A stretch of 64,000 nt of DNA from Haliotis cracherodii. Taxonomy: Eukaryota. The stretch's first letter is position 1. Every line of letters starts with the position of its first letter. A program made the position numbers and the translations under genes. The DNA lies in contig NW_027266277.1 of the NCBI RefSeq assembly GCF_022045235.1, positions 12,338,001 through 12,402,000 of the forward strand, in the 5' to 3' direction. This document shows, piece by piece, positions 4,091 through 64,000 of the stretch. Under the pieces are notes generated by a model that did not search any database, was not told the DNA's origin, and saw nothing but the letters and a program-made list of their open reading frames with translations.

Positions 4091-5673
4091 TTAAGACACC
4101 ACATTGACTCTTCTAAAAAACTTTTAAAAGAAATTAAGCGTTGAGTGGATGGGATAGAGGCGATTGTTGGGTCGCGTGTGCCTCCCCCGATCTCCCCCTC
4201 CTAGCTGCACGAGACAAAGGAGGGGTCTGGTTTTGAGAGCTGACAGGAACGCGAGGGGGTTTGATATGAAAGATGGGGCGATATTGGTAGACGTAAGGCT
4301 GGTATGGCGACACTTTATTCTTTCATTTGAGTCTATAAACTGATCATGATGGTGTATTGTCTGGCTGTTAGAAAGCGATATCTGTGTTGTTTACCACGCT
4401 TTAGTCGCTCCAAGACGAGCTCGAAGTGTTTTATGTCTTCAACTAGGGACTGAGCTCGACGCTTTGTAAACAGCACGAGAACGGGACGACAGCTCGCCCA
4501 GTCGTGCAACCACCTGCTAATGGAAACAAAAGGCACAAAATTCGATCAGAAATTCTTTCGCGTTTTCCGTGTAAATAAACTTGTCTGCTAAATATTTGGC
4601 GACACCTTCTAGTCCATTGACTTTATAAACTTAAATTGTTAGCATTGAGTTAGAGCTCTACCGCTCGCTGCTGAAGAGACGGGAACTTGTCGTCTGCTCG
4701 CGGCCGCTTTCAAAATTAATTAGCGCGTTAAAGAGAATATAATGAGTTTCCGATAGTCTTTGTGAAACGGGTTCTCTATATTGCTGGGCTAGTCGATCTC
4801 TGAATAATCGCGAGGCTTCTGCGGGTGCCTACCTTGCCTAAAACGAGTTTCTTAGGGGAGGGAAAACGTCCCGGTGATGCTAGAGCACCAGTCGAAATGT
4901 CATCTCCCCTTTTACACAACGCGTAATGTCACTCTCTGATTTTGATGAATTTTTAATGATTATTTGAAATTCTAAAGATCTTATCTTTGATTGGAGACAG
5001 CGTTAAGAGGGTTGTTAAGAGCGGTTGCCTCTTTAAACAAGAATTAATTTCGAGTAGAGACCTCGCCATGTTTAAGCTATTGTTGCTAGACACACTGTTT
5101 GATTGAGGCAATAATTAGCCAATTGTGATAGCCATTTCTGAACATTATTTCAAAATATGTTAAGCAGTCACGGTGACTAGATTTTCGCTCTTTTTTCAGT
5201 TTAAATCGAATATGATCGCATTTCATGTAAGATTATGTACACTGTTGAATTTCAATTTAGACGTTAAATGTCTCTGAATTATTTAATTTTGATGTTTATT
5301 AAAATATTACATGTACTTATCCTATGTTGCGTTAATAATTAAATGAGTAAAGTCCAACATACATGACGTATTCTTAATAAAACAATTCTGCATTTGAAAT
5401 AGTTATAGAATAATACATGCGCTCCGATTGTGTATCGGAGTGATTGTACATGCATCTGTTAAAAAGGGAATATGGTCTCAATGTGTAGACTTTGTAATTT
5501 GTGATTGTGTTAATTAACACACTGTCCCTGGTTAATGAGGGGAGTGTTCAACTGTTAGACACGACAAAGCGGGGTTTGAAGGGCTGGACGTAAACTTGCT
5601 TGATGCTGGGACGGTCAAGTTGCCAGATTACAGTACCCCCTTTTGACGTCCGCCATTACGGTGAGGGAGAGCC

Positions 5674-10429: not shown

Positions 10430-11630
10430 CTCTGACATTGTGCATATAGTCACACATTCGGACAACGTCTATGCAAATCACACATTCTGACATCGTGCAT
10501 TCAAAAGGCACATTCTGAGAATGTGCATTCAAATGACACATTCTTGCTGCATACATTGAATCGAAACATTCTTCCATGGAGCGAGCTTTCAAGTCACACA
10601 TTCTCTAAGCGTGCTTTCAAATCACACATTCTTCCATGGAGCGAGCTTTCAAGTTACACATTCTCCAAGCGTGCTTTCAAATCACACATTCTTCCATGGA
10701 GCGAGCTTTCAAATCACACATTCTTCCATGGAGCGAGCTTTCAAGTTACACATTCTCCAAGCGTGCTTTCAAATCACACATTCTTCCATGGAGCGAGCTT
10801 TCAAATCACACATTCTCGGAGAAGCAGTCAGATCATACATTCTGAGAACGTACATTCAAATCACAAATTCTCAGAATGTAACTCAAATCACACATTCTGA
10901 GAACGAACTTTCAAACCACACATTCTGAGAACGTACATTCTCAAATCACATATTCTGACAGCGAGCATTCTCAAATGACATATTCTGACAGCGAGCATTC
11001 AAATCTCACATTCTGAGAACGTACATTCAAATCACACATTCTGAGAAATTACATTCAAAGTACACGTTCTTCCACTGTGCGAATTCTCAGGTCACACATT
11101 CTCCAAGCGAACTTTCAAATCACACAAACTGGGAACGTACATTCAAATCACACATTCTAAGGACGTACATTCAAATCACACATTCTGAGAACGCACATTC
11201 AAATCACATATTCTGAGAACTTACACTCAAATCACACATTCTGAGAACTTACATTCAAATCACACATTCTGAGAACGTACATTCAAAGCACACATTCTGA
11301 GAACACACATTCAAAACACACATTCTGAGAACGTACATTCAAATCACACATTCTGGGAACGTGCATTTAAATCTCACATTCTGGGAACGTGCATTCAAAT
11401 CTCACATTCTGAGAACGTGCATTCAAATGTCACATTCTGGGAACGTGCATTCAAAACACACGTTCTTCCACGGAGCGAAGTCAGGCATTCTCCCAGCGAA
11501 CTATCAAATCACAAATTCTGGGAGAAGCGTTCAAATCACACATTCTGAGAACGTACATCCAAATCGCACATTCTAGCAGCGAGCTTTCAGATCACACATT
11601 CAATCAGCAAGCATTCAAATCACACGATCT
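10430..11630. repeat. Minisatellite, 28-bp unit (ACATTCAAATCACACATTCTGAGAACGT), ~40 copies, with a 60-bp higher-order sub-array
   Basis: CATTCAAATC at 11168 and 11196 (28-bp spacing); alternating 32/28-bp variants at 10566-10815. Confidence 0.95.
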
Positions 11631-12348
11631 GAGCGCAATCCCACCACATATTTAGCATGCCTATGCATGTTGTTTGTGCCAGACTGTTGACATTTGACTC
11701 ATCAATAAACAACAAACAGTGCCGCTTTGACAATAATTATTTGACAACAGGTCAACCGAAAAAGTCCACCGAAGTCAATATGTTCCGTAAGGTATGACTT
11801 CCGGTCAACGAGGGTGTCTATCGTGTGTCACATTGCAGAATAAACCGGACAAATTCTCTAATTACAAGAGCATGTTAGTCCAGTCCGAACGATTGATCCG
11901 ACTGTGGTCGATGTGTTGTCTTATCTCGATTGCTTGGCGCGAGATCATTCTCACTCTGCTAGTTTTCCCACGAGATGGACATTATGAATTAGGTACTTCG
12001 ACCCCGGTGGGATTTCTGCAAGATGGAGAATCTGAATCTTTCGCATTGAGAAGTCACAGTCAACGACGAAAATGAACTCAAATGATATATGAAGTCCATT
12101 TAAATACACTACCACAAATAAGTCTTTACGATTAGCATTCTGAATTCGAATTCATGAGTAAGTTAGTGTTAAATCATCCTCGATAATCCAGGGTATTTAT
12201 CCTCCTCTATGAAAAACAACCCCGAACCAATTTGCTTCCATAGCTTAGGGGTGGCTTATGCCATCTCTTTTATCAGTATCTGTTTATAGAATTGTTATTT
12301 TAAGTGTCGAGACATTCGAATTCAGAATGTGTACGCATTCCAAAAATG

Positions 12349-36369: not shown

Positions 36370-37105
36370 GCTAATAACGAACTAATGTATCAGCCATGAC
36401 GAATATCAGTTTTAACGAACAAAGTTATTAGCCATGACAAATATCAGTTATAACGAGCTAAGGTATTAGCCATGACAAATATCAGTTATAACGAACTAAT
36501 ATATTAGCCATGACAAATATCAGTTATAACGAACTAACGTTTTAGCCATGGCAAATATCCGTTATAACGAACTAAGGTATTAGCCATGACAAATATCAGT
36601 TATAACGAGCTAAGGTATTAGCCGTGACAAATATCAGTTATAACGAACTAATGTATTAGCCATGACAAATATCAGTTATAACGAACTTACGTTTTAGCCA
36701 TGGCAAATATCAGTTATAACGAACCCAGATATTAACCCGAGATCACTATCGGTTATAACGAACCAAGATACATGTTTTGTTTGTTTGTTGTTGAACGCCG
36801 CACTCAGCAATATTCCAACTATATGACGGCGGTCTGTAAATAATCGAGTCTGGACCAGACAATCCAGTGATTGACATCATGAGCATCGATCCACACAGTT
36901 GGGATCGATGACTTGCATCAACCAAGTCAGCAAGCCTGCCCACCCGATCCCGTTAGTCGCCTCTTACGACAAGCATAGTCGCCTGTTGCAGCAAGCATGG
37001 GTTGCTGAAGACCTATTCTACCCCGGATCTTCACGGATCCCAAGATACATGTATTAGTCCCTGATCACTATCGGTTATAACGACAACTATCAGTTATAAC
37101 AAACC
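36370..37105. repeat. Minisatellite, 38-bp unit (GTTATAACGAACTAAGGTATTAGCCATGACAAATATCA), ~10 copies plus remnants, interrupted by family B
   Basis: GCCATGAC at 36431 and 36469 (38-bp spacing); array resumes after the insertion. Confidence 0.93.
36776..37039 (-). mobile_element. Retroposon family B
   Basis: TSD CCAAGATACATGT at 36763-36775 and 37040-37052. Confidence 0.92.
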
Positions 37106-55152: not shown

Positions 55153-55360
55153 AGCCACATTGTTATTTCATCCCACCGACCATTCTTTTCAGACATGACT
55201 CGAGAAATATTAGCTTTAATATTATTAATATTTTTATTTCGACCTGCAAACTCATACTAATAAACAAATGGAAAATCATATGAACATCCATACCTCGCTA
55301 ATGTTCTCAGTTTAGTTGTGTTATTACTCAACAAGGGAATAAGGTATACACAATTTTATA

Positions 55361-55426: not shown

Positions 55427-55540
55427 AAGACTGAATGAGGGACATGTTTGTGATTCTGTCAATGAGAAAGGAGTCGTGTTGAAATCTGCCTGAATGGTTG
55501 TTTAACATAATTTTTCAGTGCCATCAACACGTTCTGTCCG

Positions 55541-55649
55541 GGGCCCACTTGCACAAAGCGATTTTAGCGCTACGACCGTCTTAAGTCTATGTTAGAGTAT
55601 TGGAGTTACGACCATCGTAGCGCTGAGATCACTTTGTGCAAGAGGGCCC
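55541..55649. mobile_element. Short palindromic MITE (GGGCCC ends, possibly PIF/Harbinger-type)
   Basis: GGGCCCACTTGCACAAAGCGATTTTAGCGCTACGA vs TCGTAGCGCTGAGATCACTTTGTGCAAGAGGGCCC, ~35-bp inverted arms. Confidence 0.8.
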
Positions 55650-56077
55650 AGGTCAATTCTCGAAAATTCGAAAACCTGTGACAGTACCCCTGCTGTAACC
55701 TGCTGTTAATAACGGCGAGTTGTGCGATCTTCCGATCGCTTCACACACGATTTCGCCGAAATTAATTAACCCAATATCAAAAGGAATTTTGAATAAATTT
55801 AATGAAATAAGTTACAAACATAAGTCCAGATATACAAAGAACACTTTTTATAGCCAGACAGTGTAATTACCTGACTAATTTGCGTACTTCAGTATGGATT
55901 TGTTGACATGGTATTTCCGGTGATACGTGCTCGCGGTAATGTCTTTCCATGGGGGGAAAAACATCAAAACTCATTAATTCGTGTATAATGCGCACCCCCT
56001 TCTACATAGCTGTGTTTTTTTTTTAAAAAAAAGTGCGCACTATACTCAAGAAAATACGGTATGTCTTTAACTTCTCG

Positions 56078-56365
56078 TCAATGAATTGTTCTTGACCTCT
56101 TGACATCATAACCCTTCAAACCGACGGTGTCAGTAAACGAGCCATATTCAGTGCCACTTCCTGGTTTTTGCGTTAAACCCGAAGTACCTCTTTGAGCTAA
56201 CAATCCGTCTTGAAGAGGCTTCAGTGTGTGTTTCAAGGGTCCAGCAGATCTTGAAATCACCCGAGCAGTCGTCTTAGACTTGATGTTCTTGGATTTTGTA
56301 GGATTTGATTTGATTTTTGTCTCCGGTATGTCCTGTCCTTGTAGGTGTCGCCTGTTGCCTTTGAT
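56078..56365 (-). CDS. Probable frameshifted C-terminal extension of the same protein
   Basis: Alternative frame open for ~96 codons (KIKSNPTKSKNIKSKTTARVISRSAGPLKH...RTIH*) with similar K/S/T/G composition; joined by removing one base from the A5 run at 56314-56318. Confidence 0.45.
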   Translation of the reverse strand: MKGNRRHLQGQDIPETKIKSNPTKSKNIKSKTTARVISRSAGPLKHTLKPLQDGLLAQRGTSGLTQKPGSGTEYGSFTDTVGLKGYDVKRSRTIH

Positions 56366-59300
56366 CTACTTTGGTACCAGCGTGACCTTGATTTGGCGCA
56401 TAATCATGACCCGGTGAACCTGTATCACTCCGCAAACCTTCGTGACCTCGCACTCCAACGTGACCTCGTACAGCAATCTGACTTGGTACATCAACATTAC
56501 CTTCAGTGTGACCACGAACACCATTGTAACCTTGACCACGTACATCATCTTGACCTCTGGCACCATCTTGACCTTTGACACCATCTTGACCTAGCAAACC
56601 TTCGTGCGTTCGCACTTTATCGCGACCTCGTACATTAACTCGTACACCAGTACGACTTCGCGCACCGTCGTGACCTTGATCTCGTACATAACCATGACCT
56701 TGTACATCAGCTCGGCGTATTACATTATCGTGAGGTCGTACATCAGCTCGGCGTATTACATTATCGTGAGGTCGTACATCACCTTGACCTCGTGCACCAT
56801 TGTGACCTTGACCTCGTACATCATCATGACCTTGTACATCACTGTGACCTCGTGCACCATTGTGACCTTGACCTCGTACATAACCATGACCTTGTACATC
56901 GCCGTGACCTCGTAATTCATCGTTCCGTGGTTCAGCTGGACGTCTTTGCTGCGACCTTGTCCGGTCATTCTTTGTACTTTCGGATTTTGGAACTGGTAGT
57001 GTCTTCTTATGCACATTATTCTCAGATAAACCACCAGTTTCCTTGTGTTCGGTGATATGCAATTTCATTTTGTTCCCTAATCTGCTAAGGTTCTCCGTCA
57101 TGCCTAAAGACCCTGTCTTCATTATAGCCAATCTGTCCACAGCGTGTAGCCTCCCCTTATTTCTAGCCTGCTGCAGTGTATATTCAGACAGCCCAGCATG
57201 GAGACTTTCCTTTCTTCTGATTCCAAGATTTCGTAAACTCCGCATCTGAAGAGTCGTAAGCCGTTTCCCGATGTCAGCCTTGGCCTTGATCGTTTTGTGT
57301 GATATGTTTTCTTGTCCCTTGATTCTGTCAACAAACCGTGGTCCAGTAATACGTTCTGGTTGACCTCCTAGCTTCAACACGTCCATGCGTGTCTGCTCAG
57401 CGTTGGCTGTTTCATCGCTGGCGTTTCCTTTTGTTGAGGTCAATGATTTAGCGTCCCGGACCTTGGAAATAACTTTGGTGTCGTGGAGTAGATCATATTT
57501 TGTTTGATGCCTACGTGAAAGGAAGAGATGGATTTTGGTAATATTTGCTCGCTTTCGATTACGCTGTTTTAAAAGATCACGTTTTTGGCCTGTGAACATC
57601 TTTTTGTCCGATTTTCTTTTCATACTCTTTGGAGTCAGTTTGTTTATCTTCTGTATTTTAATATTTTTAAAAGCGCCAATATTCTGATTCTTTACCCCTG
57701 CTCTATCGGTAGCATCTTCTTTCGCTCCAATATTTAGCTTCATCGCAGTATTGCGTTGTTGACCTGAGAAGTCCCCGGTGTCCAATTGTCTATTTTCACT
57801 CTTAGTTTTTGAGGTAACAAGTGGCTGTTTTGTTTCAGTTTCTTCAGAATGGACATGACTCTTAGTCTTTGACGTAGCAAGTGCTTGTTTTCTTCCAGTG
57901 TCATCAGCATGGACATGACTCTTAGTATTTGACGTAGCAAGTGGTTGTTGTCTTCCAGTGTCCTTTACATGGACATGACTCTTAGTCTTAGACGTAGCAA
58001 GTGGTTGTTGTCTTCCAGTGTCCCCAACATGGACATTGCTCATAGTCTTTGACGTAGCAAGTGGTTGTTTTGTTTCAATGTCTTCAACTTGGACATGACT
58101 CTTAGTATTTGACATAGCAAGTGGTTGTTGTCTTCCAGTGTCCTTAACATGGACATGGCTCATAGTATTTGACGTAGCAAGTGGCTGTTGTCTTCCAGTG
58201 TCTTCAGCATGGACATGGCTCTTAGTATTTGACGTAGCAAGTGGCTGTTGTCTTCCAGTGTCTTCAGCATGGACATGGCTCTTAGTATTTGACGTAGCTA
58301 GTGGCTGTTGTCTGCCAGTGTCCTCAGCATGGACATGACTCTTAGTATTTGACGTAGCAAGTGGTTGTTGTCTTCCAGTGTCATCAGCATGGACATGGCT
58401 CTTAGTATTTGACGTAGCAAGTGGTTGTTGTCTTCCAGTGTCATCAGCATGGACATGGCTCTTAGTATTTGACGTAGCAAGTGGTTGTTGTCTTCCAGTG
58501 TCATCAGCATGGACATGGCTCTTAGTATTTGACGTAGCTAGTGGCTGTTGTCTGCCAGTGTCCTTAACATGGACATGGCTCTTAGTATTTGACGTAGCAA
58601 GTGGTTGTTGTCTTCCAGTGTCATCAGCATGGACATGGCTCTTAGTATTTGACGTAGCAAGTGGTTGTTGTCTTCCAGTGTCATCAGCATGGACATGGCT
58701 CTTAGTATTTGACGTAGCTAGTGGCTGTTGTCTGCCAGTGTCCTTAACATGGACATGGCTCTTAGTATTTGACGTAGCAAGTGGCTGTTTGGTTTCAGTG
58801 TCTTCAGCATGGACATGGCTCTTAGTATTTGACGTTGCAAGTGGCTGTTTTGTTTCAGTGTCTTCAGCATGGACATGGCTCTTAGTCCTATTCAGTCCAC
58901 CCCCTTCTCGCTGTTCTGTAAGACGCTGTGGGGACAAACTGAGGCGTTCTTTATTGGTTAACTGTTTCCCAATGTTAGCTAGTTTCAGTTTCGACCCCGT
59001 CTGTGGGAATCGTGTCTGTGATAGTTTACCAGTCAAACGTTTTGGACTCTTTGTGGATATGCGAGGTAATATACCCAAAGCTTTCATACCAACCCCTGCA
59101 TATTTGTTCAGTCTACCCGACTTCAATGGAAACTCCTTCCTGGCCGTGTCAGACGTTCTGTCTTTTGTCCTAAGGTTCATCTTTAACAAAGCCGGTTCAT
59201 CAGCATTTTTGTCACGAACAAAGGTAAGGGGAGACATGTTAGAGTTCACCTTCTTGTGCATCCACGGGTTGAACCCATTACCGGAATATATTCTATTATT

Positions 59301-59556
59301 GCGCAACTTAGAGCGACGATAACCGTGGGATTCTTTCATACGAGACCCAAAGCCGGAAGGTCTGAATCCTTTGCTGTTTGGTCTGTAGGATGGGTGTGAG
59401 TGATGTTTGTTGGGTGTGACAGAGGTCCACGTATGTCGGTGCCAGGAAGTGACGGAGAAGAAGATGTAGATGACACACGTCAGTAGCACGACCTACGTCA
59501 CGTACTGGCATGTCTGCAGGAACCGGAAACACAGACAGGGGGCGTATCGCGCATAA
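56274..59556 (-). CDS. Large coding exon of an uncharacterised basic low-complexity repeat protein with N-terminal signal-anchor; in-frame TAG at 59493-59495 (possible null allele, pseudogene or assembly error)
   Basis: 1071-codon open frame, mostly non-repetitive outside two arrays. Acceptor TTCTCATTCTACTTCCAG at 59557 is in phase with the upstream micro-exon. Hydrophobic VVLLTCVIYIFFSVTSW; K/R-rich linkers; no recognisable globular domain. Confidence 0.8.
56380..56915 (-). repeat. Coding 18/24-bp repeats encoding V-R-G-H-x-D-type Gly/His hexapeptides
   Basis: Recurrent TGACCTCGTACATC / TGACCTTG on the plus strand. Confidence 0.9.
57798..58886 (-). repeat. Coding tandem repeat, 60 bp x 18 (TKSHVHADDTGRQQPLATSN)
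   Basis: Exact 60-bp periodicity with no indels. Confidence 0.97.
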
Positions 59557-59872
59557 CTGGAAGTAGAATGAGAACCCGTCAGTGTTAAAGACACCCAGAC
59601 CCACTCGGTTTATTCCGCCAAATACGAGTACAATGGACGAAAACAAAAGCACGTTCCTTATGCCATTACTCTAACGAGTTTCGAGGCCTAAACATGTAGC
59701 AATGTGTCTAAAATCTAAGCATGTTTTCAATCTAAACCTTCATAATATATCAGTGAAACTAATAATGATAATGACGTTAATAGAATAAGGAGTCAAGTCC
59801 TTATAGTATATAATTGCACATGGCGTCTTGTTTCACTAACATCTTGCACTAGGAACCAAAACATCAGAATAA

Positions 59873-60025
59873 GTGAGTGAGTGAGAATGGTTTTACGCTG
59901 CTTTTAGCAATATTCCAGCAATATCACCAGAAATGGGCTTCACACATTGAACCAACTTCGGGAATCCAACCCGGGTCTTCGGCGCGACGAGCGAACGCTT
60001 TAACCACTAGGCTACCCGACCGCCC
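59873..60025 (-). mobile_element. SINE family A (intronic)
   Basis: TSD ATCAGAATAAG at 59863-59873 and 60028-60038. Confidence 0.92.
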
Positions 60026-60172
60026 GAATCAGAATAAGGAATGTTCATTATTATAATGTTTGGGGGTTGCTCTGCTTTATTGCAACAGGTATATAAACCA
60101 CCTTGAAGTATATTGCATTAACACTGAAACCTTTTAGCCATGATGTCTTGCAAGTTCTAATAAGTCCTTTTC

Positions 60173-60649
60173 TACGAAAGCCTAACGGTGCCACTTTGTA
60201 GCATATGCACTTTTTTTAAATCGAAATTTCTCGTTATTTCAATTATTTGTTTGATTTCTTCGAGTTTTTCATTTACGTTACTTCGAGTATGTTTTGGGTA
60301 TTTCAATTACTTTCTCACTACATCGAGTGATTTTTAGTTTATTTTCAAAAACTCCAAATGTCGATTTTTTTTCTGCTAACTTCGATTAAAATAATTTAAG
60401 TAACGAGAAAAAACACTCGAAATTTCGAGTTTTTTAGATAAACTTGAAATAACGAGAAAATATCCAACGGAACAAAAACAAACTCGTTATTTCGAGAAAA
60501 TAACGAGAAAATAATCGAAGTAAGGAGAACAAATTCGAAGCAACGAGATAGAACTCGAAATTTCGAGAAAATAATTGATACAACCAGAAATTTCGATTAA
60601 AAAAAATAAAATCTATTAATGCTAACATTGGCACCATTAGGCTATCGTA
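60173..60649. mobile_element. MITE with ~30-bp TIRs and internal inverted short-period repeats (intronic)
   Basis: TACGAAAGCCTAACGGTGCCA...TAGCAT vs ATGCTA...TGGCACCATTAGGCTATCGTA; interior built of TTCGAG / ATAACGAGAAA motifs. Confidence 0.85.
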
Positions 60650-61273
60650 CTTCTCTACCATACAAGACTATTACATGCTGATATATATCAACACAAAATA
60701 CAAACACACAACTCATCAAAGAATGCATACTTTAGTGTGTAATTATGTTTGTATAAATGTGTGTAGAGGCAGTTTTATTACATGAAAGCTGGAAGATGAT
60801 AGTGCCACGGGCACTGCAACTCCCCCTTACATCACTACCTCTTCTACAGTACTACTTCTGTTCATTTCGGAGCTAATACAGGCCGATAAACAGTAAAGGC
60901 GAAGGACAATGGCCAGTTGGTGGAAGGGAGGTAACTCGTGGAATTCCGATATTTGTCTAAATTTCAGCCCCTCTGCTTCACCACGTCAGTTCGAAACCTC
61001 ATAATCAGGCACCCGATTTACTGTTATTCCCCTTTTCTTTTAGGGGATTTTCCAGGAATAGCAAGTGCCTAAAAGTAAACCCCCGTTAAGCCGTAATTGT
61101 AAATGATCTGTTTTTCACTTCTCACCAATACCTTCATCTACACAGCCATTCTTTCAGACGCACCTCTTGCTTGCCAGGTGAAATAGTTATGATAGTGACG
61201 TAAATGCAAAGTTGCTCGATCAATCTTCCATCACCAAAATATAACAGCAAACATTTCACAAGCGTGCATTACA

Positions 61274-61275
<2 letters not shown>

Positions 61276-61312
<37 letters not shown>

Positions 61313-61325
61313 TGTGTTTGTGTGT
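61276..61325. repeat. (GT)n microsatellite
   Basis: Direct reading. Confidence 0.95.
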
Positions 61326-61608
61326 TTAAGTTTAAGACCAGCTTGTGATTGTCACATGCAGGAAACAAGCTGAATAGTCAAACTGAATAGTCAGATTTGT
61401 ACATATTTATATAGTGAAGCGGTCGGGGCCTGAGAATAATTTCGAGATATAGGTATATTCGAGATAATCGAAGCTATGCGCAGAAACCATATATTTTTTT
61501 ACAACTGTAACAATATCTTTACATTCTCTATAAAAAATCTTGATAACCTACACCGTCGCTCCAATTGTAATAAAGAAGATGTTCATCCTATAGGCATTAC
61601 TTATAAAA

Positions 61609-61879
61609 GTTGTTGGTTGGTTTGTTGTTTAACGCCACACTCAGCAATATTCCAGCTATATGATGGCGGTCTGTAAATAATCGAGTCTGGACCAGACAAT
61701 CCAACCATTGAAATCATGAGCATCGATCCACACGCACTTTGGATCGATGACTTGCATCAACCAAGTCAGCGAGCCTGACCACCCGATCACGTTAGTCGCC
61801 TTTTACGACAAGCGTAGTCCCCTTTTACGGCAAGCATGGGTTGCTGAAGACCTATTCTACCCCGGATTCCTCACGGGTC
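61609..61879 (-). mobile_element. Retroposon family B (intronic)
   Basis: TSD ACTTATAAA at 61599-61607 and 61880-61888. Confidence 0.92.
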
Positions 61880-61894
61880 ACTTATAAAGTAGCT

Positions 61895-61975
61895 ATATAA
61901 ACACTGTAAGTTGATGTGGAGTTAGCATATACTCCGAAACGTTGTTCCTGATAATAAAGAAGTTGATATCCATAT
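61895..61975 (+). mobile_element. Penelope-like pLTR remnant with degenerate hammerhead-like motif
   Basis: TATATAAA, TTGATGT, stem GGAGT/ACTCC, GAAACGTTG, AATAAAGAAGTTGATATC. Confidence 0.5.
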
Positions 61976-62020
61976 ATTCTCTTCCTAACTTTAAATCATA
62001 CATGCAATATCGTACATTAC

Positions 62021-62055
62021 CTTCTCTCGTCGTCTTTAAACTGCGTCTTCGTCAT
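62021..62055 (-). CDS. First coding micro-exon of the repeat-protein gene (MTKTQFKDDER); whole exon 62021-62069
   Basis: Branch point GACTAAC plus CTCCCAGTTTCAG acceptor, GAGCCATG start, AAG|GTAATG donor; phase 2 fits the 59556 acceptor exactly. Confidence 0.7.
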
Positions 62056-62696
62056 GGCTCACAGCACTACTGAAACTGGGAGGTTAGTCAACAGCAAGTC
62101 ACCGGCTTCACGTGTAAGGGGTGTCAACCAAGCGAGAAACAAGGCAACATATTTCTGCGAGTTAACTCCAGGGGACATCATTTCAAAATCGCCAAATTAA
62201 GCCCTTGCTTTATAAAATTGGACCATATCCCTGCGTTAACCTGAAACGGCTGTTGCCTTTGCCAGCGTTCACAGGCGGGATCATATTGAAAGTCTGCTTC
62301 AATAATCTTGAATGTGTCTTAAAATGCAATAAAATGCCTTTATTGCCAGGTCGTTATTTATAAGATAATATTTTAATGTTCAAGATTTAAAAGGCACAGT
62401 TCTCGGCTGCTTCCGTTGTCATGTTCGGCTGTTTCCGTAATCTATATCCGATAATCTGGTTCAACATATAAGGGAAGAATGCAAAAAGATGAAAAAAATT
62501 TTACCAGTTGAACGAGATCCGAGGCTCTGATTCAACGTATACCAGGGAGCAGAAAAAAATCGACAACTGTTTTGTGTTTGACTCACTCATGCAAAATATT
62601 CAACTAAATGCACAAATACATGTACATAGTGTTTGTTGTGCGATGTTCAAGGTCTTATCTGCGGAAGCTTTTAGGGCCATTTGTTTTTTCTTTGTT

Positions 62697-62856
62697 TTCT
62701 TGAACTTTCAAGATACTAAGTTGAAATTTCAAGATACTGTGAACATATGTATCTTGAAATTTCATCGTAGCATCTTGATATTTCAAATTAGCGTCTTGCA
62801 ATTTCAAGCCAGTATCATAAAATTTCAACTTGGTATCTTGAAATTTCAACTGAACA
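62697..62856. repeat. Degenerate ~22-bp repeat (ATCTTGAAATTTCAA core)
   Basis: Palindromic TTGAAATTTCAA recurs several times. Confidence 0.75.
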
Positions 62857-62989
62857 TAATAGGTCTTCAGCAACCCATGCTTGCCGTAAAAGGCGACTAT
62901 GCCTGCGTAGGAGGCGACTAACAGGATCGAGTGGTCAGGCTCGCTGACTTGGTTGAGTGCGGAGTTAAACAACAAACGAACAAACAAAC
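62857..62989 (+). mobile_element. Retroposon family B, internally deleted
   Basis: 5' part joined directly to tail. Confidence 0.85.
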
Positions 62990-63591
62990 TGCTACCATGG
63001 GTGGTTTTGAGTGAACATATGGATCTGACACTTCGTCTTTGCAGTATTGCAATACTTAGAGAGGCGACGTAAAATATCACACACTTGGCCGGCGGCAGTC
63101 AGGCCGTAATACGACAGATCGGAGTCCTTAACCAAGCTCATCACGACATTAAACAAAAGTGACTATTTGCGCAAAGATGTCCATCTGCTGAAACCCCTTT
63201 CGCAACATCCTTAGAACACTTCTTTTAGTTTTGTCGCACCCTTGTTAATATGTTTTATTGGTTAACCGGGTTAAACAAATTGAATTCAGTCAGTGAAATA
63301 AAACAGGAAAACAGGAAAACAGGAAAACAAATAAATAACGCAAGGGATTTCCATCTTTTACTGCTTCACTTTAACATAGCAACTGCCCTCATTTCATACA
63401 GCACTACAGCACTGCATACTTTAAAAGTTAAATATAACTTAACATGGCAAAATAAGCTCTCTCCTAGAAGACCGAATGAGAAAACAAAATTTAATCATTC
63501 TTAAACTAAACTCAATGTTGTGCTTATCGTTGGTATTGAATTAATTAGATGATATATTAACATGTGCTTTTAGTATACATTGACATTTGTC

Positions 63592-63719
63592 GGGGGTGGT
63601 CGGGTAGCCTAGTGGTTAAAGCTTTCGCTTTTTCCCCGAAGACCCGGGTTCGATTCCCCACATTGGTACAGTGCGTGAAGCCGTGATATTGCTGGCGTGA
63701 ACACATCGTTACACACTCA
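63592..63719 (+). mobile_element. SINE family A, internally deleted
   Basis: A/B boxes intact. Confidence 0.85.
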
Positions 63720-63910
63720 TCGAGACTTTGCTGTCTTTGAAAACATGCATTGCCTTCAGATATTTATTTACATTTCGTAAACTTTTCTTTTATTGTTGTA
63801 AGGAATCTTAATTATAGTTTTCCTCTACTTTGTTTCTGATGATTTTCTTGTCATAAAGTTAACCTGTTAAGATAGCTGGGAAAGAGTAGAAGCGCCTTAC
63901 AGTATCTCGC

Positions 63911-64000
63911 CCACGTGAAGATCCCGGTTTGAATAGGCCTTCAGCAACCCATTCTTGTCGTAAGAGACGACTAACTGGATTGGGTGGCCAGGTTCGCTGA
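63911..64000 (+). mobile_element. Retroposon family B, cut by window end
   Basis: CGTGAAGATCC...GTCGTAAGAGACGACTAA. Confidence 0.85.

What the first reader, a model, noticed from the sequence alone, without database searches (positions are those of the whole stretch)
56078..62069. Unannotated-type spliced gene for a ~1100-1170 aa membrane-anchored or secreted repetitive protein
Seen: micro-exon plus giant exon give MTKTQFKDDERSYARYAPCLCFRFLQTCQYVT*VVLLTCVIYIFFSVTSWHRH..., i.e. a short tail with Cys cluster and one hydrophobic segment. Then come a K/R-rich region, 18 x 20-aa Thr/His-rich repeats, a second basic region and Gly/His repeats. No known domain is recognised. Inference: lineage-specific type II or secreted low-complexity protein like mollusc shell-matrix, adhesive, mucus or gamete-coat proteins.
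Basis: partly seen in the sequence, partly recalled or inferred. Interest (0 to 1): 0.75.

Follow-up and report, generated by a model that had tools for sequence, protein, structure and literature searches.

The report
Membrane-anchored histidine-repeat mollusc protein
This is a real, fast-evolving gene, likely of an abalone, for a roughly 1,100-residue, positively charged, repetitive protein that is predicted to hang from a membrane by one anchor and likely acts as a histidine-bearing scaffold in an extracellular coat; the early stop codon in this assembly is missing from three other animals, and the gene is an ordinary kind for molluscs.

Summary
The gene is real. A 35-nt coding micro-exon (ATG 62055) joins in phase to a 3.3-kb exon (59556-56274, minus strand), giving 1,105 codons; the junction itself is unproven. 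The stop at codon 33 is private to this assembly: 3 of 3 covering DNA runs from three organisms read TAC (Tyr) there. The protein ends at TAA 56274, not 56078, because frameshifting indels lie only beyond it while 7 of 7 length changes seen inside the ORF keep frame. Amino acids change almost neutrally (15 synonymous, 37 non-synonymous). Anatomy: Cys-bearing tail, one hydrophobic segment, then a Cys-free ectodomain of pI 10.5 with two basic tracts, 18 x 20-aa His-x-His repeats and a Gly/His tract. No true homologue, domain or published peptide was found. AlphaFold2 folds the repeats as a beta-solenoid, but it does so for most random 20-mer repeats too. Best reading: a lineage-specific, signal-anchored, mostly disordered polycationic coat or matrix protein of the molluscan RLCD kind. 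Tissue, topology and metal binding are inferred, not shown. New member of a known kind; interest 0.3.

The parts
62021..62069 (-). Micro-exon: 14 nt of 5' UTR, ATG at 62055 in gccATG context, 35 coding nt (MTKTQFKDDER + AG). A branch-point-like TGACTAAC and acceptors at 62076/62070 lie upstream, so a further non-coding exon is likely.
   Evidence: donor ranks 4 of 510 GT sites by a crude matrix; junction not seen in RNA
59557..62020 (-). Predicted GT-AG phase-2 intron, 2464 nt, holding high-copy interspersed repeats
   Evidence: (acceptor ranks 8 of 521 AG sites)
59496..59556 (-). Rest of the N-terminal tail with Cys19, Cys21 and Cys28 (likely cytoplasmic, possibly palmitoylated)
   Evidence: palmitoylation inferred
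59493..59495 (-). Codon 33: TAG in this assembly, TAC (Tyr) in runs X1, X7 and X15
   Evidence: table 3, row 59493
59442..59495 (-). Single hydrophobic segment, residues 33-50 (signal anchor, or h-region of a long signal peptide)
   Evidence: (helix 2-15 of the model)
58887..59441 (-). Basic tract 1, residues 51-235 (net about +29, predicted disordered); its 3' part is highly polymorphic
57799..58886 (-). 18 x 60-bp repeat = 18 x 20 aa (TKSHVHADDTGRQQPLATSN type; Thr+Ser 26%, His 9%)
56922..57797 (-). Basic tract 2, residues 599-890 (net about +38, predicted disordered)
56406..56921 (-). Gly/Arg/Val/Asp/His tract of 6-, 8-, 12- and 20-residue imperfect repeats; length varies in frame between organisms
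   Evidence: 36-nt and 96-nt skips, 114-nt duplication
56274..56405 (-). C-terminal tail and true stop TAA (56276-56274)
56078..56273 (-). 3' UTR, not coding: indels of 2, 10, 1 and 1 nt in X15. The transcript end is unknown (ATTAAA at 55803, AATAAA at 55238).

Best explanation
A two-coding-exon gene keeps a 1,105-codon frame across at least four organisms and encodes a basic, repetitive protein that is likely inserted in a secretory-pathway membrane by its single N-terminal hydrophobic segment and likely displays a mostly disordered ectodomain as a scaffold of an extracellular coat or matrix. Shown: the ORF, the repeats, the composition, the frame conservation, the true stop, and Tyr at codon 33 in three other animals. 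Inferred mechanism: the short Cys-bearing tail stays in the cytosol (type II). The Cys-free, 117-kDa, pI 10.5 ectodomain faces out, either tethered or shed at one of 19 dibasic sites or after the VTS motif. Its two basic tracts would bind polyanions (sulfated glycans, acidic matrix proteins), and the His-x-His repeats and Gly-His tract would give pH- and Zn/Cu-dependent cross-linking or condensation on release into seawater. Selection appears to act on length, charge and frame rather than on sequence. The copy in this assembly is either a null allele or a base error.
For: Frame: 7 of 7 net length changes seen inside the ORF are multiples of 3 (3, 6, 18, 36, 42, 96, 110+4), against 0 of 4 listed indels in the 174 nt laid beyond the stop (X15), plus X7 contigs with 11 and 1 gap letters there. 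Codon 33 is TAC at full depth in 3 of 3 covering runs. No new stop among the other 51 ORF substitutions shown. Single copy: exon depth matches unique intron depth. X17 (RNA by the tool's guess, organism F) has contigs on 56190-56710 and 56880-57534 that read through the stop colinearly, and no depth on unique intron bins. All four ectodomain tracts fall on the disordered side of the charge-hydropathy line; pLDDT is under 50 outside the repeats and the helix. RLCD proteins make up about 30% of shell-matrix proteins in Lottia, Haliotis and Pinctada and evolve by slippage (PMC4897951 passages). Polycationic disordered and His-metal cross-linked proteins are known in other marine secretions (PMC9999432 and PMC12721214 passages).
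Against: No RNA shows the junction or a tissue. X17 lacks the 5' third of the exon and may be DNA. Flanking charge does not favour N-in topology (+1 vs +2 within 15 residues). Six N-glycosylation sequons are no enrichment. There is no canonical furin site. His is only 67 of 1054 ectodomain residues, far below the 27 mol% of NVJP-1. None of six peptide motifs occurs in the 27 supplement files of the H. laevigata shell proteome. Substitutions are not distinguishable from neutral (15 of 52 synonymous vs 0.23 expected, p=0.32). Three of the seven in-frame indels lie in repeats with periods divisible by 3, so they are not independent (the other four: 0.012).
Confidence: 0.5

Rival explanations
1. 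Reverse topology: the short N-terminus is luminal and the large basic domain lies in cytosol or nucleoplasm, where it would tether a membrane to nucleic acid or cytoskeleton (for example in germ cells).
For: Charge next to the hydrophobic segment is slightly higher on the C side. K/R clusters such as KRKSDKK and RNRKR resemble nuclear localisation signals (sequence; inference). The long domain has no Cys and no sequon enrichment.
Against: Three Cys just before the anchor fit a palmitoylated cytosolic tail (established knowledge, not tested). The anchor ends in a signal-peptidase-like V-T-S. His-x-His and Gly-His repeats are typical of extracellular materials.
Confidence: 0.17
2. A gamete-recognition or self/non-self surface protein under diversifying or balancing selection, rather than a structural coat protein.
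For: Within organism A, two contigs over 58857-59217 differ from the window at 33 of 506 bases, against 15 of 1324 in five intron or exon-1 pieces and 10 of 1498 in three pieces at the anchor and C-terminus. 14 of 17 shown changes there are non-synonymous. X1 is heterozygous for haplotypes that share variants with organisms B and F.
Against: The two divergent pieces were picked after seeing the table; other mid-exon pieces differ little (1/418, 0/210, 0/200, 21/825). 14:3 is not above neutral (p=0.78). Rough pN/pS is 0.76 and 0.60, below 1. There is no gonad data.
Confidence: 0.13
3. The big exon is an alternative terminal or stem exon of a longer type II Golgi enzyme or receptor gene whose catalytic exons lie further downstream.
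For: A short Phe/Tyr-rich anchor after a Cys-bearing tail resembles Golgi type II enzymes (recalled). A few moderate donor sites lie inside the exon (59249, 59281, 56782, 56500).
Against: The stop is kept in X1 and X17, and X17 reads through it without a joint. No Pfam domain above cut-off in 150 of 248 unmasked downstream minus-strand ORFs. No longer homologue.
Confidence: 0.08
4. A dispensable or decaying gene: a young pseudogene in organism A, with the stop at codon 33 as its first lesion.
For: Nonsense codon in the assembly; near-neutral amino-acid change; three guessed-RNA runs of organism A hold next to none of its words (the tool says this is no evidence).
Against: X1 of organism A is TAC at full depth; the frame is intact in organisms A, B, D and F while the adjacent UTR collects frameshifts.
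Confidence: 0.07

Closest known systems
Molluscan repetitive low-complexity domain (RLCD) secretome proteins (PMC4897951; H. laevigata IDPs in PMC6003135)
   Same: Lineage-restricted, modular tandem repeats, biased composition, predicted disorder, length change by in-frame slippage.
   Different: A 32-residue tail before the hydrophobic segment suggests an uncleaved anchor rather than a short signal peptide; no motif match in the H. laevigata shell proteome files; mantle expression unknown.
His-bearing marine structural proteins: mussel Mfp-4, Nereis NVJP-1, squid-beak HBPs (PMC9999432, PMC12721214)
   Same: Large, basic or near-neutral, disordered, repetitive, with His and Gly-His motifs that could cross-link through metal or pH change.
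   Different: No sequence homology; His 6% overall (9% in the repeats) vs 27 mol% in NVJP-1; no GHGXY pentapeptide; membrane anchor present; Tyr only 11 residues.
Membrane-tethered mucins (MUC1 type)
   Same: Membrane anchor and a 20-residue, Thr/Ser-rich tandem array in one giant exon (20-residue MUC1 repeat noted in PMC11795689; exon layout recalled).
   Different: Anchor is N-terminal, not C-terminal; no SEA or other Pfam domain; Pro is low; strongly basic flanks.
Parallel beta-helix / beta-solenoid proteins (3p4g ice-binding protein, pectate lyases, curli CsgA)
   Same: The AF2 model of eight repeats aligns at Z 11.7 (rmsd 3.0, 155 aligned) to 3p4g_A and Z 11.2 to 1ee6_A.
   Different: 3-16% identity, no Foldseek match at E<=0.001, generic fold, and a known AF2 bias on such repeats.

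Membership tests
Molluscan RLCD secretome proteins | Tandem low-complexity repeats with biased composition | tested here: met
Molluscan RLCD secretome proteins | Predicted intrinsic disorder | tested here: met
   (AF2 orders only the repeat array and the anchor helix)
Molluscan RLCD secretome proteins | Lineage-restricted, no distant homologue | tested here: met
   0 hits; 68 hits, all on repeats; 8 sequences read and 30 scanned in Pfam were unrelated
Molluscan RLCD secretome proteins | Entry into the secretory pathway (signal peptide or anchor) | tested here: inconclusive
   one hydrophobic segment; topology ambiguous; SignalP and DeepTMHMM not available
Molluscan RLCD secretome proteins | Mantle expression or presence in shell matrix | tested here: inconclusive
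   no motif hit in 27 supplement files of PMC6003135, exact match only, another species possible; no tissue data
His-rich metal-cross-linked structural proteins (NVJP-1, HBP, Mfp-4 type) | Very high His content or GHGXY-type repeats | tested here: not met
   67 His in 1054 residues; GHGDV and GHGYV only; values for NVJP-1 and HBP
His-rich metal-cross-linked structural proteins (NVJP-1, HBP, Mfp-4 type) | Zn/Cu binding and metal- or pH-triggered assembly | not testable with these tools
   18 His-x-His and 14 Gly-His motifs present; binding needs bench work
Membrane-tethered mucins | C-terminal anchor with SEA or related domain (recalled definition) | tested here: not met
   only hydrophobic segment is N-terminal; no such Pfam hit
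Type II Golgi enzymes with long stems | Luminal catalytic domain after the stem | tested here: not met
   ORF ends at a kept stop; no domain
Beta-solenoid repeat proteins | Repeat stacks into a parallel beta-helix | tested here: inconclusive
   AF2 pLDDT about 60-88 over the array, but 36 of 50 random 20-mer repeats gave the same in PMC11795689

The most novel reading that the evidence does not exclude
The 18 repeats really stack into a membrane-tethered beta-solenoid whose His-x-His motif forms an 18-rung histidine ladder, a Zn/Cu-binding rod or functional-amyloid seed flanked by polycationic brushes, which nucleates or cross-links an abalone coat (and might hydrate CO2, as designed His-ladder amyloids do; recalled). 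That would be an undescribed architecture among mollusc matrix proteins, with deeply diverged alleles and a segregating null allele as a ready natural test.
Probability: 0.12. Interest if true: 0.65.

Novelty: new member of a known kind. Interest (0 to 1): 0.3.

Why it matters
It adds a real gene that is absent from the protein collections searched, which fits an annotation broken by the private stop and the 35-nt coding exon (inferred). It shows that such a stop should be checked against other individuals before a gene is called dead. If the protein is a tethered His-bearing polycation, it is a candidate anchor between a secretory epithelium and its coat. If the stop is a true allele, it gives a natural knockout.

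Tried and rejected
No whole genome is held, so paralogues could not be searched. No listed holder is on record as RNA; this is not evidence either way. Homologue searches were blank: residues 1-200 of P0001, residues 560-1072 against longer proteins, the C-terminal 458 aa, ESM Atlas twice, metagenome contigs, earlier scan findings by sequence, place, relatives and words. The 68 phmmer hits all fall on repeats. The Pfam SfsA_N hit (E 1.5e-10) is rejected as summed score over repeats of a bacterial OB domain. Double stop read-through or a frameshift to 56078: rejected by the UTR indels. A splice at about 56188: rejected, because X17's loose end is the colinear genomic continuation. TAG 59493 as an acceptor: poor site (rank 224 of 521) and it is TAC elsewhere. 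Neighbouring genes: no Pfam hit above cut-off in 150 of 248 minus-strand and 143 of 245 plus-strand unmasked ORFs, shortest 48 aa; short exons would be missed. Literature: five peptide motifs gave only two unrelated listings; topic searches listed no paper on this protein. bioRxiv supplements are closed and other proteome tables were not searched, so an accession may exist there. The Foldseek PDB search gave no match at E<=0.001.
Full report
Observation. On the minus strand an ATG at 62055 opens 35 coding nucleotides that end at a phase-2 donor, AAG|GTAATG, at 62020. An acceptor ending at 59557 continues the frame, and the joined CDS has 1,106 codons with stops at codon 33 and codon 1106. The frame from 59492 to 56274 is open for 1072 codons. 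The chance of 518 non-repeat codons without a stop is about 1e-13, and the other five frames hold 40-99 stops. The donor ranks 4 of 510 GT sites and the acceptor 8 of 521 AG sites in 55500-64000 by crude scores of my own. The junction is therefore plausible but unproven. The window is likely abalone; this rests on unchecked earlier notes for the same genome and on my recall of its interspersed repeats, and was not tested.

The stop at codon 33. Contigs of three DNA runs from three coded organisms cover position 59493, and all three read G on the + strand at full depth: X1 31/31, X7 14/14, X15 13.5/13.5. That is TAC, Tyr. X17 does not cover the site, and X4's letter was not shown because the table was cut before it. 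The normal protein therefore reads ...CQYVTYVVLLTCVIYIFFSVTSW... The assembly carries either a rare nonsense allele or an error; these tools cannot tell which.

The true end. No difference is listed at 56274-56276 for X1 or X17, whose rows bracket the site; rows seen only in X7 or X15 were partly hidden (139 rows not shown). Beyond the stop, X15 has indels of +2, +10, -1 and -1, and two X7 contigs have 11 and 1 gap letters. Inside the ORF, 7 of 7 net length changes seen are multiples of three: 3, 6, 18, 36, 42, 96 and 110+4. Three of these lie in repeats of period divisible by three, and two are flagged 'between: not known', so the conservative chance figure is 0.012 for four events. Tables were truncated, so minor indels could be hidden. 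X17's loose end at 56190 matches the next genomic bases, so it is not a splice.

Expression. X17 is RNA only by the tool's guess. It has contigs over 56190-56710 and 56880-57534, small pieces further 5', and zero depth on unique intron bins and on the 5' part of the exon. This fits a 3'-biased transcript in organism F but is weak evidence. No holder is on record as RNA.

Evolution. Of the 52 ORF substitutions displayed (387 and 139 further rows were hidden), 15 are synonymous and 37 non-synonymous, against 0.23 expected synonymous (p=0.32). None creates a new stop. Rough pN/pS is 0.76 within organism A and 0.60 between organisms at the C-terminus (hand counts). The frame is held while the residues drift, as expected for a disordered protein selected on length and charge. 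The gene looks single-copy by depth. Two organism A contigs over 58857-59217 differ from the window by 33 of 506 bases, against 15 of 1324 in intron or exon-1 pieces. I chose these pieces after seeing the table, and other mid-exon pieces are nearly identical (1/418, 0/210, 0/200), so this is a hint only.

Anatomy. Residues 1-32 form a tail with three Cys. Residues 33-50 are the only hydrophobic segment. The remaining 1054 residues (117 kDa, pI 10.5, no Cys, 67 His, 18 His-x-His, 14 Gly-His, 19 dibasic sites) comprise basic tract 1, 18 x 20-aa repeats, basic tract 2 and a Gly/His tract. All four fall on the disordered side of the charge-hydropathy boundary. AlphaFold2 gives pLDDT under 50 everywhere except the anchor helix and the repeats. 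It builds the repeats as a parallel beta-solenoid, both from the single sequence and from a repeat-shift alignment (pTM 0.74, three or fewer of five models above pLDDT 60). The model matches generic beta-helices (3p4g_A, Z 11.7, rmsd 3.0; 1ee6_A, Z 11.2) with no significant Foldseek hit. PMC11795689 (abstract and sections 3.1 and 3.2.8 read) reports that 36 of 50 random 20-residue repeats gave such solenoids, and this repeat has only four hydrophobic residues in twenty. I give the fold low weight.

Relatives. No homologue was found in three searches of 5.8 billion proteins. The 68 hits among 1.84 billion representatives all lie on repeats, and those inspected are unrelated. ESM Atlas, metagenome contigs and earlier scan notes were blank. 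No other Pfam-recognisable gene was found among 293 ORFs scanned in the window.

Mechanism. Shown: gene structure apart from the junction, frame conservation, composition. Inferred: membrane insertion by a signal anchor with the tail inside; display or shedding of a polycationic disordered ectodomain; binding to polyanions through the basic tracts; His-mediated, pH- or metal-triggered cross-linking through the two His-bearing tracts. I put this at 0.5. The rivals are reverse topology (0.17; flanking charges +1 vs +2), a recognition protein under diversifying selection (0.13), an alternative exon of a longer type II enzyme gene (0.08) and a decaying gene (0.07). Confidence that it is a functional protein-coding gene in the lineage is about 0.9.

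Comparison with what is known. It works like the molluscan RLCD proteins (PMC4897951, passages) and meets the sequence criteria that I could test; the tissue criterion is open. Six motifs were absent from all 27 supplement files of the H. laevigata shell proteome (PMC6003135, passages and supplement searches). It resembles Mfp-4, NVJP-1 and squid HBPs in principle (PMC9999432 and PMC12721214, passages) but fails their His-content and motif criteria. It is not a MUC1-type mucin or a Golgi enzyme. Searches for it in print (listings only) found nothing; closed bioRxiv supplements and unsearched proteome tables may hold it.

Verdict. This is a real orphan gene, a new member of a known kind. The one oddity, an in-frame stop before the anchor, is private to this assembly. 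Interest 0.3. The boldest reading not excluded is a membrane-tethered histidine-ladder solenoid (probability 0.12).

Noticed in passing
window 58857-59217 and 57421-57630: Organism A alleles differ by up to 6-7% in the tracts flanking the repeat array and share variants with organisms B, D and F, while the anchor and C-terminus differ by under 1%; possible old polymorphism or introgression.
   Followed up: partly
window 59514 (-): A second strong acceptor inside the tail (rank 3 of 521) would accept a phase-0 first exon and still keep the anchor; spliced to the known micro-exon it gives an immediate stop.
   Followed up: partly
window 59308-59670 (-): A 120-codon open frame overlaps the acceptor and the anchor in another frame; probably incidental.
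   Followed up: no
window 10450-11632: A 28/32/60-bp satellite of about 41 copies with short His/Ser/Phe-rich ORFs broken by stops.
   Followed up: no
window 36374-36767: A 38-bp tandem repeat, 10.3 copies.
   Followed up: no
window 62493-63098: A 21-bp repeat leaves 142- and 147-codon frames open on both strands upstream of the gene; part of it is repeated elsewhere in the window.
   Followed up: no
window 1-56000: No Pfam-recognisable exon in 56 kb. A promoter- or first-exon-like stretch near 4100-4900 was seen by eye, so the gene may sit in a long intron of another gene.
   Followed up: partly
window 57799-58886: The repeat array scores above the Pfam cut-off for SfsA_N (PF17746), a false annotation that pipelines could inherit.
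   Followed up: yes
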